Origin: the human T2T-CHM13v2.0 reference genome, Homo sapiens
Direction: 5' to 3' (one strand)
DNA length: 64,000 bases
NCBI RefSeq assembly: GCF_009914755.1
Contig: NC_060932.1
Translations under genes and position numbers: made by a program
Notes under the pieces: model-generated
What the model was told of the DNA's origin: nothing
Seen by the model: the letters and a program-made list of their open reading frames with translations, nothing else
The model's database searches: none
Part shown: piece by piece, positions 57,967 to 59,682 of the stretch
Position numbering within the stretch: position 1 is the stretch's first letter
Layout of the letters: every line of letters starts with the position of its first letter

Positions 57967-58194
57967 GGGAAAGTGTGGTGGTACAATGACCAGCTCCACT
58001 CTGCCCGGGAATTGGCTGAGTTTGGAAATGCTGTGTAAGGAGGGAAAGAAAGAAGGGCAACTGGGAGACAAAAATCTTGCAAAAAAAAGAAAAGTGGAAA
58101 AATAAAAAATGCAATGCACCCAATTCTAACAAACCCAGGCATGAAACTTTGAAGTTTCTCAGCAAGTAGACGTGATCTTGCAACTGAAGACAGA
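57967..58194 (+). repeat. Segment A of local inverted duplication (partner A' 58725-59290)
   Basis: gggaaagtgtgg...gcaactgaagacaga is the reverse complement of 58725-59290 once the AluY is removed; about 85-90% identity by eye. Confidence 0.95.
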
Positions 58195-58593
58195 TCAGTG
58201 CAAGTGAAAACCCAGCAAAGGGTTGTGAAGATGGGAGACTTTGTGTGTAAAATGATAACCATAGTGCTGGGCTTCAAAGATCCTGACACAGACGGTATGA
58301 TTGTTCCTATGACTGGCTACCACACATCCCTGTGTCAATGCATAGGCGAAGCGTAGATGCTCTGGCCTTGCGTTGGAGCCCCAGAACGCAGGTTAGGCTA
58401 CCTAGTACTATAGAATATAAAGTGTTGAAGTGAAACATGATGATTTATACAGTAGCACAACTCCTTAGCAATATCTGGAGGCATGGGGGGATGAATATCC
58501 AGGTTCCCAAGACACACTAAAGATGCCATGTAGGCTAAAGCAAAGAGGGGCTGAAGGTGTCCATGCTCTTCTCTGATGGTCTGCAGGGGCTGT

Positions 58594-58729
58594 GCTGGGC
58601 TTCTCTGTGTCCAGGCGCAGTGGTGGACCACTGGACCCAGCCTATCTCAGGGAGTGTTGCCTTCACACTTGTCCCCATCCTCCTGGTCACAGCAAATAGG
58701 TCTAAATGTGTCTATTTCCTGCCCTCTGT
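58594..58729 (+). repeat. Segment B of local inverted duplication (partner B' 59559-59682)
   Basis: gagtgttgccttcacacttgtccccatcctcctggtcacagcaaataggtctaaatgtgtc...cctgccctctgt matches the reverse complement of 59559-59682. Confidence 0.95.
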
Positions 58730-59290
58730 CTTTAGTTGCAAGATCACATCTACTTGCTGAGTGATTTCAAAGTTTCATGCCTCAATTTGTTAGAGTTTGG
58801 GGCATTGCATTTTTTATTTTTCCACGCTTTTTTTTTTTTTTTTTTTTTTTGAGACGGAGTCTCACTCTGTCGCCCAGGCAGATAGTACAGTGGTGCTATC
58901 AGGCAGATAGTACAGTGGTGCTATCTCGGCTCACTGCAAGCTCTGCCTCCCAGGTTCACGCCATTCTCCTGCCTCAGCCTCCCAAGTAGCTGGGACTACA
59001 GGCGCCCGCCACCATGCCTGGCTAATTTTTTTGTATTTTTAGTAGAGACGGGGTTTCACCATGTTAGCCAGGATGGTCTTGATCTCCTGACCTCGTGATC
59101 CGCCCACCTCGGCCTCCCAAAGTGCTGGGATTACAGGCATGAGCCACCACGCCCAGCCTTTTCCACGCTTTTTTGCCCAAGATTTTTGTCTCTTAGTTGC
59201 CCCTCTTTCTTTCCCTCCACACACAGCATTTCCAGACACAGCCAATCCCTGTGCAGAGTGGAGCTGGTCATTGCACTTCCACACTTTCCC
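58725..59290 (-). repeat. Segment A' (inverted copy of A) split by AluY
   Basis: tctgtctttagttgcaagatcacatctacttgctgag...[Alu]...gcagagtggagctggtcattgcacttccacactttccc. Confidence 0.95.
58828..59158 (-). mobile_element. AluY with internal 25-bp tandem duplication
   Basis: AluY-type gcaagctc, ggttcacgccattctc, gttagccaggatggtc, gacctcgtgatcc; TSD ttttccacgctttttt at 58818-58833 and 59159-59174. Confidence 0.95.
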
Positions 59291-59558
59291 AGGTGTGCTT
59301 CTAAGAGATGCAGTCCCCAATATACCCTGTTCTTACTTCAACTTGCAGTTTCTCCAAATGAAATTCCCCTTTACCTCCCAAGGTCTGGTCACATTGAGAA
59401 GATGCGACAACACTAAGGCAGCAACACAATGCTGGCCTTCCAGAAAGGAGCAAAAGACTTAAAAATAGCCTCTCTGAGACAACCTGCAGGGCTGCACCTA
59501 GCCCTGGCTGACCAGCACATACCTCTGGGGTAGACCAGGCATTGGCCAGCCCTGCTCC

Positions 59559-59682
59559 ACAGAGGGCAGGAAATGGACACATTTAGACCTATTTGCAGTG
59601 ACCAGGAGTATGGGGACCAGTGTGAAGGCAACACTCGGTAAGACAGGCTGGACCACCGCACTTGGGCACAGAGAAGCTCAGC
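59559..59682 (-). repeat. Segment B' (inverted copy of B)
   Basis: acagagggcaggaaatggacacatttagacctatttgcagtgaccaggag...gggcacagagaagctcagc. Confidence 0.95.

What the first reader, a model, noticed from the sequence alone, without database searches (positions are those of the whole stretch)
57967..59682. Interleaved inverted duplication whose internal copy looks like a spliced product of its own flanks
Seen: the order is A (57967-58194), spacer X1, B (58594-58729) fused to A' (58725-59290), spacer X2, B' (59559-59682). A' is the reverse complement of A and B is the reverse complement of B'. Read on the minus strand, the internal block is A joined directly to B' (...gcaactaaagacag|agggcagg...), skipping the ~670 bp of X1+X2 it sits in. 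The outer sites read gaagacag|atcagtg (one substitution from a CAG|GTCAGT donor) and ccagccctgctccacag|aggg (a plausible acceptor). Inference, two models: (1) cDNA of a spliced local transcript was inserted antisense into its own intron, without a poly-A tail, as in RNA-templated break repair; (2) multi-step template switching (FoSTeS/MMBIR) using the shared ACAGA pentamer (58190-58194, 59559-59563, tctgt 58725-58729). The arms differ by about 10-15% and the AluY is present only in A', so the event is old.
Basis: partly seen in the sequence, partly recalled or inferred. Interest (0 to 1): 0.8.

Follow-up and report, generated by a model that had tools for sequence, protein, structure and literature searches.

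The report
Old local inverted patch copied from flanks
A 350-base patch made of two non-adjacent nearby stretches, joined as if about 670 bases had been cut out, sits backwards between its own sources in a human gene desert; it is a real and old rearrangement, but the sequence alone cannot say whether it was copied from DNA or from a spliced RNA.

Summary
A (57967-58194) is the reverse complement of A' (58725-59290, split by a later Alu): 87.5% identity. B (58594-58729) is the reverse complement of B' (59559-59682): 89.5%. Homology ends sharply at all four outer ends. The inner block read on the minus strand is A joined directly to B' at a shared ACAGA, skipping 667 bp (X1 399 + X2 268). The whole human genome holds no other copy of A, B, X1, X2 or the flanks, so a repeat family is rejected. 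K2P 0.129 dates the event to roughly 29-65 My.

Which template was used stays open. The outer junctions read CAG|ATCAGT and CCCTGCTCCACAG|A. That is one substitution from a good GT-AG intron, and only about 0.2% of random microhomology junctions look this splice-like. Against an RNA template: the present sequence has no GT, no gene is annotated here, and local sources fit DNA template switching best.

My odds:
- DNA-level template switching, or inverted duplication followed by an ACAGA-mediated deletion: about 0.5.
- Capture of a spliced local cDNA: about 0.35.
- Nested element with a 5-bp target duplication: about 0.05.
- Something else: about 0.1.

Primate outgroups, which I could not reach, would decide.

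The parts
57967..58194 (+). A: outer left source segment (would be 'exon 1' under the RNA model); ends in ACAGA 58190-58194
   Evidence: Inverted pairs I1 and I2. Alu-excised alignment: 196 of 224 ungapped positions identical to the reverse complement of A'.
58195..58593 (+). X1: 399-bp unique spacer, not copied into the inner block; begins TCAGT (donor-like positions +2 to +6 after A at 58194)
   Evidence: No match elsewhere in the genome or in 264 kb by nhmmer. Donor-like 9-mer CAGATCAGT at 58191-58199.
58594..58729 (-). B: inner inverted copy of B', with one 12-bp indel relative to B'
   Evidence: Pairs I3 and I4. 111 of 124 ungapped positions identical.
58725..58833 (-). A' part 1: inner inverted copy of the right half of A. 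It shares TCTGT (58725-58729) with B and ends in the first copy of the Alu target duplication.
   Evidence: Pair I2; alignment.
58834..59174 (-). Later Alu insertion (poly-T at its left end) plus the second copy of its 16-bp target duplication (59159-59174). It contains a perfect 25-bp internal tandem duplication at 58875-58924.
   Evidence: Target duplications located. Rfam SRP/Alu-derived matches on the minus strand at 58849-59157. Matches to other Alus in the window. Tandem unit found at 58875 and 58900.
59175..59290 (-). A' part 2: inner inverted copy of the left half of A
   Evidence: Pair I1; nhmmer E 2e-22 to 57968-58079.
59291..59558 (+). X2: 268-bp unique spacer; ends in the pyrimidine-rich CCCTGCTCC that precedes ACAG
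   Evidence: No other genomic match. Acceptor-like context: 65% pyrimidines at -20..-4 and C at -3.
59559..59682 (+). B': outer right source segment (would be 'exon 2' under the RNA model, from 59563); begins with ACAGA 59559-59563
   Evidence: Pairs I3 and I4; alignment.

Best explanation
This is a neutral relic of one old, local, DNA-level rearrangement.

**Inferred ancestral order.** A-X1-X2-B'.

**Inferred event.** During replication or break repair, the growing strand left its template at the X1|X2 boundary (now 58593|59291).
1. It switched to the opposite strand and copied B' backwards, from 59682 to 59559.
2. It slipped from the ACAGA at 59559-59563 to the ACAGA at 58190-58194, 667 bp upstream at the time of the event.
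3. It copied A backwards to 57967.
4. It returned to its original template.

This is a FoSTeS/MMBIR-type multi-switch.

**Equivalent two-step route.** One switch-and-return first copied the whole A-X1-X2-B' unit in reverse into its own middle. The central part was then deleted between the two TCTGT pentamers.

**Later changes.** An Alu inserted into A'. The arms then drifted apart to 11.8% difference.

**Shown.** The anatomy, the uniqueness of the sequence, the sharp ends, the 5-nt overlap, the approximate age and the later Alu.

**Inferred.** The ancestral order, the DNA nature of the template and the number of steps.
For: - **Local sources.** Both source segments lie 399 and 268 bp from the insertion point, on the same molecule and in inverted orientation. 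This is the signature described for MMBIR-type templated insertions: an inverted copy of a nearby template (PMC8421209, passages read).
- **Junction overlap.** The internal junction has 5 nt of overlap (ACAGA). A random blunt join would show 5 nt or more with probability 0.0046. MMBIR junctions carry 2-12 bp, average 3.7, in 80% of cases.
- **No transcript known.** No gene is annotated in the window or within 100 kb upstream (hub's table).
- **No canonical intron.** No register of the junction gives a canonical GT-AG, GC-AG or AT-AC intron in the present sequence (observed 1 mismatch).
- **No mark of RNA origin.** There is no poly(A) and no target duplication at 58593/59291. There is no excess of A>G changes in the inner copy: 7 A>G against 8 G>A among 41 mismatches.
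- **One event.** The two arms have the same divergence (Fisher p 0.61).
Against: - **The splice-like look is then a coincidence.** The outer junctions look like an intron. CAG|ATCAGT is matched or beaten, ignoring +1, by only 112 of 63,991 plus-strand and 128 of 63,991 minus-strand positions of the window.
- **It is a rare coincidence.** Among random site pairs 200-3000 bp apart with exactly 5 nt of microhomology, only 355 of 268,077 on one strand and 615 of 279,029 on either strand (0.22%) are as splice-like as this one. Under a DNA-only model this is roughly a 1-in-450 coincidence. The thresholds were set at the observed values and the donor matrix was recalled from memory, so the figure is somewhat optimistic.
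- **Little microhomology.** The other two junctions (X1|B and A'|X2) show 0 nt of microhomology in the present sequence (read). So only 1 of 3 junctions fits the MMBIR habit.
- **Complexity.** The model needs three switches or two separate events.
Confidence: 0.5

Rival explanations
1. **Spliced-cDNA capture.** A plus-strand transcript once ran through this region. It was spliced from a donor at 58193|58194 (then CAG|GTCAGT) to the acceptor at 59562|59563. A double-strand break arose inside that intron, between X1 and X2. A reverse-transcribed piece of the spliced RNA (57967-58193 joined to 59563-59682) was joined into the break by end joining, in antisense orientation. This is a class-2 templated insertion, also called RT-product-mediated break repair. 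The donor G later mutated to A.
For: - The splice-likeness is the one feature that DNA models leave to chance: 0.13% of one-strand and 0.17-0.24% of two-strand random microhomology junctions reach it.
- With G restored, the donor would score as well as only 24 (+) and 33 (-) true GT sites in the 64 kb.
- The overlap ACAG is what the consensus CAG at exon ends and at intron ends produces.
- There is no poly(A), no target duplication, truncation at both ends, and blunt insertion junctions. This is the published description of class-2 TSIPs and RMDR, which include spliced cDNAs (PMC5110952; PMC4516963).
- In Ono et al., a 50-bp piece of Peg10 cDNA sequence was captured at a break made in Peg10 itself (figure legend). 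Capture of own-gene sequence therefore has a precedent.
Against: - The present donor is AT, not GT. One mismatch to GT-AG in some register is by itself found in 25% of random junctions (67,212 of 268,077).
- +3 is C, a rare donor base (recalled).
- No gene is annotated here (hub's table).
- 57967 has no TATA- or initiator-like context, and 59682 has no poly(A) signal (by eye).
- A cDNA landing within 400 bp of its own source needs a special local mechanism. Captured cDNAs in the cited work came from distant, highly expressed genes.
- Phrase searches found no described case of a spliced retrocopy in its own intron. Searches returned listings only; two passages read were irrelevant.
Confidence: 0.35
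2. **Nested insertion.** A and B' were once contiguous. A mobile or translocated 1,364-bp piece (X1-B-A'-X2, about 1,023 bp before the Alu) inserted between them and made the 5-bp target duplication ACAGA.
For: ACAGA flanks the 58195-59558 segment as a direct repeat, and the uninterrupted inner copy carries it once. Five bp is the duplication length of ERVL/MaLR elements (MuERV-L: 5 bp).
Against: - The insert would have to carry an inverted copy of exactly the 228 + 124 bp that flank its own target.
- Its ends are not TG...CA and are not inverted repeats of each other (X1 start against the reverse complement of X2 end is no better than shuffles, 1455 of 2000).
- X1, X2, A and B have no other copy in the genome or in 264 kb by nhmmer --max. 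The same genome search did find the 85-88% identical A' from A.
- The flanks of A and B' are not homologous to X2 and X1.
Confidence: 0.05
3. **Single simple event.** A staggered-break inversion, or one switch-and-return under the four-point model, produced the present order directly.
For: Such events do create paired inverted repeats. Type 3-1-4-2 gives two inverted repeats (PMC5453318).
Against: The predicted order is S1, S3 inverted, S2 inverted, S1 inverted, S3, which would be A-B-...-A'-B'. The observed order is A-X1-B-A'-X2-B', with the two inverted copies fused in the middle. A single switch-and-return would leave inverted copies of X1 and X2 inside the block, and they are absent.
Confidence: 0.02

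Closest known systems
MMBIR/FoSTeS templated insertions (MMB-TI; PMC8421209) and short-range template switching in great apes (PMC5453318, PMC7954356)
   Same: An inverted copy of nearby template on the same molecule. Microhomology (5 nt) at a switch point. Creation of new inverted repeats.
   Different: - Two non-adjacent templates are fused, with a 667-bp skip.
- The copied tracts are 124 and 228 bp, far longer than the tens of bp typical of the short-range events.
- 2 of 3 junctions have no visible microhomology.
- PMC7954356 was seen only in the search listing.
Class-2 templated sequence insertion polymorphisms / RT-product-mediated DSB repair (PMC5110952; PMC4516963)
   Same: An insert without poly(A) or target duplication, truncated at both ends, with the donor site left intact. 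The insert lacks an internal stretch bounded by intron-like signals.
   Different: - The source is the same locus, 268-399 bp away, rather than a distant expressed gene.
- The splice donor is not canonical today.
- No transcript is known.
- The event is fixed and tens of millions of years old rather than polymorphic or experimental.
L1-mediated processed retrocopy (class-1 TSIP)
   Same: It would also give an intron-less copy.
   Different: No poly(A), no target duplication and no TTTT/A-type site at 58593|59291. Defining features not met.

Membership tests
Class-2 TSIP / RMDR (cDNA patch at a double-strand break) | The insert derives from RNA: the internal junction coincides with canonical splice sites of the source | tested here: inconclusive
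   The junction maps to CAG|ATCAGT and ...CCACAG|A, which is AT-AG today and one substitution from GT-AG. The overall splice-likeness is reached by 0.13-0.24% of random microhomology junctions.
Class-2 TSIP / RMDR (cDNA patch at a double-strand break) | No poly(A) tract, no target-site duplication, donor site left intact | tested here: met
   The flanks of the inner block...GGGGCTGT| and |AGGTGTGC..., share nothing, and there is no A- or T-run of the block's own. The T-run at 58834-58851 belongs to the Alu. The outer A and B' persist.
Class-2 TSIP / RMDR (cDNA patch at a double-strand break) | A source transcript exists | not testable with these tools
   No gene is annotated in the window (hub's table). 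No RNA-seq, EST or CAGE data are in reach.
MMBIR/FoSTeS templated insertion | The insert is an inverted copy of template(s) close to the insertion point | tested here: met
   The templates end 399 bp to the left and start 268 bp to the right of the insertion point, in inverted orientation.
MMBIR/FoSTeS templated insertion | Microhomology (2 bp or more) at the switch junctions | tested here: inconclusive
   1 of 3 junctions has it (ACAGA, 5 nt). X1|B and A'|X2 show 0 nt today. About 6% change per lineage may have blurred short overlaps.
Interspersed repeat / nested transposable element | Further copies elsewhere in the genome | tested here: not met
   Whole-genome DNA searches with 57967-58194, 56800-58815 and 59170-60570 return only the local copies: 3, 5 and 3 matches, all at 37566800-37570570 of contig 8. 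nhmmer --max against the window plus 200 kb finds no other match at E<0.1 for A, X1, B+A', X2 or B'. Families diverged by more than about 25% and of low copy number are not excluded.
Interspersed repeat / nested transposable element | Element termini (TG...CA or terminal inverted repeats) next to the 5-bp direct repeat | tested here: not met
   The insert would start TCAGTG and end GCTCC. The ends are not complementary.
L1-mediated processed retrocopy | Poly(A) tail, 7-20 bp target duplication, TTTT/A target | tested here: not met
   None of the three at 58593|58594 or 59290|59291.
Known structured RNA gene | Match to an Rfam family | tested here: not met
   5 matches at E<=1 in 57000-60700, all inside the Alu at 58849-59186.

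The most novel reading that the evidence does not exclude
The inner block is a fossil cDNA. A spliced plus-strand transcript, now extinct, of what is today a gene desert was reverse-transcribed. It was then captured antisense, without L1 hallmarks, at a break inside the very intron that had been spliced out of it. That would be a fixed germline record, roughly 29-65 My old, of RNA-derived break repair acting in cis. It would also be indirect proof of a lost spliced lncRNA.
Probability: 0.33. Interest if true: 0.65.

Novelty: new member of a known kind. Interest (0 to 1): 0.4.

Why it matters
If the DNA reading holds, this is one more example of a complex local template-switch rearrangement fixed in primate evolution. 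It would be a clean textbook case, but ordinary and without evident function.

If the RNA reading holds, it would be a natural, ancient, fixed instance of a spliced transcript being used as repair patch at its own locus. RNA-derived break repair has so far been shown mainly in engineered cells, zygotes and polymorphic insertions from distant genes. The case is attractive because a single base in outgroup genomes decides between the two: G or A at the position of 58194.

Tried and rejected
- **Global alignment of A with A' including the Alu.** It misaligned. It was redone with the Alu excised in the script.
The end-gap-free alignment hinted at TGAAGT.../GCATGGA... matches in the flanks. Smith-Waterman against shuffles shows these are chance.
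- **Repeat-family explanation.** Rejected.
- **Second 200 kb of neighbouring genome for the nhmmer test.** The test therefore rests on 264 kb only.
- **Rfam.** Only Alu-derived hits.
- **Coding potential.** 28 stop-to-stop frames of 45 aa or more overlap 57800-59800, the longest 154 aa on the minus strand. None was searched against protein libraries, so coding origin is not excluded, only unsupported.
- **RNA-editing or RT-error signature.** No asymmetry in the 41 substitutions.
- **Minus-strand splicing reading of the junction.** No GT...AG register (by eye).
- **Base rate of local low-copy pairs in 264 kb.** 4 direct pairs and 1 other inverted pair besides this locus. Too few to calibrate priors.
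- **First run of the two-strand null.** It hit the time limit. It was rerun on the window plus 8 loci.
- **Earlier findings of this scan.** Not open.
- **Literature precedent for a retrocopy in its own intron.** Not found with the phrases (listings). The passages were irrelevant.

Full report
**What is there.**

I read 57700-59950 and ran the repeat finder over 57000-60700.
- A (57967-58194) pairs with two pieces of A': 59168-59290 and 58725-58838.
- B (58594-58729) pairs with B' (59559-59682).

A sensitive blastn of the region against the whole window gives E-values of 4e-33, 4e-30 and 3e-29 for these arms. Apart from them it finds only Alu-to-Alu matches.

A' is split by an Alu on the minus strand. 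The Alu is flanked by a perfect 16-bp target duplication at 58818-58833 and 59159-59174. Rfam finds only Alu-derived matches (SRP RNA, mir-1268 and the like), all within 58849-59186.

With the Alu cut out in a script, the identities are as follows.
- A/A': 196 matches, 28 mismatches and 4 gap columns (87.5%, K2P 0.138).
- B'/B: 111 matches, 13 mismatches and one 12-bp indel (89.5%, K2P 0.114).

The two arms do not differ in divergence (Fisher p 0.61). Together they give 41 differences in 348 sites, K2P 0.129.

**The junction.**

The outer copy reads GAAGACAGA|TCAGTG at 58194|58195 and CTCCACAGA|GGGCAGG around 59559-59563. The inner block, read on the minus strand, reads AAAGACAGAGGGCAGG. So A is joined to B' with one copy of ACAGA, and the 399 + 268 = 667 bp of X1 and X2 are absent.

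The homology stops sharply at all four outer ends. Local alignments of the flanks against the neighbouring ends of X1 and X2 score no better than shuffles. The counts of shuffles reaching the observed score are 514 of 2000, 812 of 2000, 245 of 500 and 86 of 500.

**Not a repeat family.**

The window's own genome, 3.1 Gb in 24 contigs, could be searched.
- A alone gave 3 matches: itself and the two pieces of A'.
- 56800-58815 gave 5 matches.
- 59170-60570 gave 3 matches.
- All matches lie inside this locus.

The search did pick up the 85-88% identical A' pieces. Family members as close to A as A' is would therefore have been seen.

I also ran nhmmer with all filters off. The queries were A, X1, B+A', A' part 2, X2, B' and both flanks. 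The target was the window plus 200 kb fetched upstream. No other match reached E<0.1 for any part of the structure. The one exception is a marginal hit (E 0.009) in the right flank at about 59983-60262, outside the structure.

Low-copy families that have diverged by more than about a quarter therefore remain unexcluded. Even so, the 87-90% identity of the arms must come from a local duplication, not from shared family membership.

**Age.**

K2P 0.129 divided by twice a substitution rate of 1.0, 1.5 or 2.2e-9 per site per year gives 65, 43 or 29 My. The rates are recalled general values. The Alu with its intact 16/16 target duplication came later.

**How it arose: what can be excluded.**

*L1-mediated retrocopy.* Excluded. 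There is no poly(A), no target duplication and no T-rich target at 58593|58594 or 59290|59291.

*Single staggered-break inversion, or one switch-and-return under the four-point model.* This predicts the order A-B-...-A'-B', or an inner block that still holds inverted X2 and X1 (PMC5453318, passages). Neither is seen.

*Nested insertion with ACAGA as a 5-bp target duplication.* It accounts for the direct repeat, but three things count against it.
- The insert would have to carry an inverted copy of precisely its own target's flanks.
- It would have to lack element termini.
- It would have to be single-copy.

I give this reading about 5%.

**DNA or RNA template.**

To the DNA reading I add a two-step variant: a full inverted duplication of A-X1-X2-B' into its own middle, then deletion between the two TCTGT pentamers.

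*For RNA.* The outer junctions look like an intron.
It is equalled or beaten by 112 of 63,991 plus-strand and 128 of 63,991 minus-strand positions of the window.
- The acceptor side is an AG with C at -3 and 65% pyrimidines at -20..-4. It is equalled by 1,002 of 127,930 positions.
- The pentamer is shared, so these two are not independent. I therefore built a junction-level null from all site pairs 200-3000 bp apart that share exactly 5 nt of microhomology.
- 25% of those pairs (67,212 of 268,077) are within one mismatch of GT-AG in some register.
- Only 355 of 268,077 (0.13%) also reach the observed donor-flank score and acceptor tract.
- Testing both strands of each junction, on the window plus 8 of the 20 fetched loci, gives 0.17% for 4 nt, 0.22% for 5 nt (615 of 279,029) and 0.24% for 6 nt.
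- The thresholds were set at the observed values, so the true surprise is somewhat smaller. Still, DNA-only models must accept a coincidence of a few in a thousand.
- The remaining features are no poly(A), no target duplication, double truncation, blunt joins and an intact donor. They match class-2 templated insertions and RT-product-mediated break repair, both of which include spliced cDNAs (PMC5110952, passages; PMC4516963, passages).

*Against RNA.*
- The present sequence has AT, not GT, and no register gives any canonical intron type.
- +3 is C, which is rare in donors (recalled).
- No gene is annotated in the window or upstream of it (hub's table).
- The ends of the copy show no promoter-like or poly(A)-signal context (by eye).
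- There is no A>G excess in the inner copy: 7 against 8.
- Above all, captured cDNAs in the cited work come from distant, abundant transcripts. Here the source lies 268-399 bp from the insertion point.
- Local, inverted sources are exactly what MMBIR-type template switching produces. A 5-nt overlap also fits its habit of 2-12 bp, average 3.7, at 80% of junctions (PMC8421209, passages).
- One partial precedent for own-gene capture exists. It is a 50-bp Peg10 piece at a break made in Peg10 (figure legend).
- Phrase searches for a retrocopy inside its own or its parental gene's intron found none (listings only; two searches were irrelevant passages).

*Against DNA.*
- The splice-like coincidence described above.
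- The two other junctions show no microhomology today.
- The model needs three switches or two events.

**Weighing.**

The following factors are my judgement, not a computation.
- Splice-likeness favours RNA by roughly 20-80 fold.
- The local source favours DNA by roughly 100 fold.
- The missing gene favours DNA by a few fold.
- The blunt joins favour RNA by about two fold.

My resulting odds are about 0.5 for a DNA-level origin, 0.35 for spliced-cDNA capture, 0.05 for nested insertion and 0.1 for something not considered. The result cannot be settled from this genome alone, and no primate outgroup was within reach of the tools.

**Function.**

Nothing suggests one.
- The region is single-copy non-coding sequence in a gene desert.
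- It has no Rfam match outside the Alu.
- The arms have drifted at a rate that gives a plausible neutral age.

If transcribed, the interleaved order A, B, A', B' would allow two crossing long duplexes. That is a geometric remark, not evidence of use.

**Verdict.**

This is a real, old, single-locus rearrangement. It is worth a five-minute look at a primate multiple alignment, because one base (58194) and one presence/absence pattern decide between an ordinary template-switch scar and a rare fossil of RNA-derived repair in cis.

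Noticed in passing
window 58875-58924: The Alu inside A' carries a perfect 25-bp tandem duplication, with the unit found at 58875 and 58900. 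NCBI's mask starts only at 58907, inside the second unit.
   Followed up: partly
window about 58625-58636 against 59651|59652: The only long indel between the arms is 12 bp. It is present in inner B (GGTCCAGTGGTCC context, a short direct repeat) and absent from outer B'. It is either slippage in one copy or a deletion in the other.
   Followed up: no
window 59983-60262: The right flank has a marginal nhmmer match (E 0.009) to L008:522-795, about 200 kb upstream. It may be an old interspersed repeat. It lies outside the structure.
   Followed up: no
L016:7292-7479 and 7613-7796 (G000 contig 8, 37437292-37437796): Another low-copy local inverted pair: 188 bp, 80% identity, arms 134 bp apart. It may be a palindromic element or a simple local inverted duplication.
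   Followed up: no
window 57967-59682: The pairing order A, B, A', B' is crossing, like a pseudoknot. A transcript through the region could not form both long duplexes as nested hairpins.
   Followed up: no
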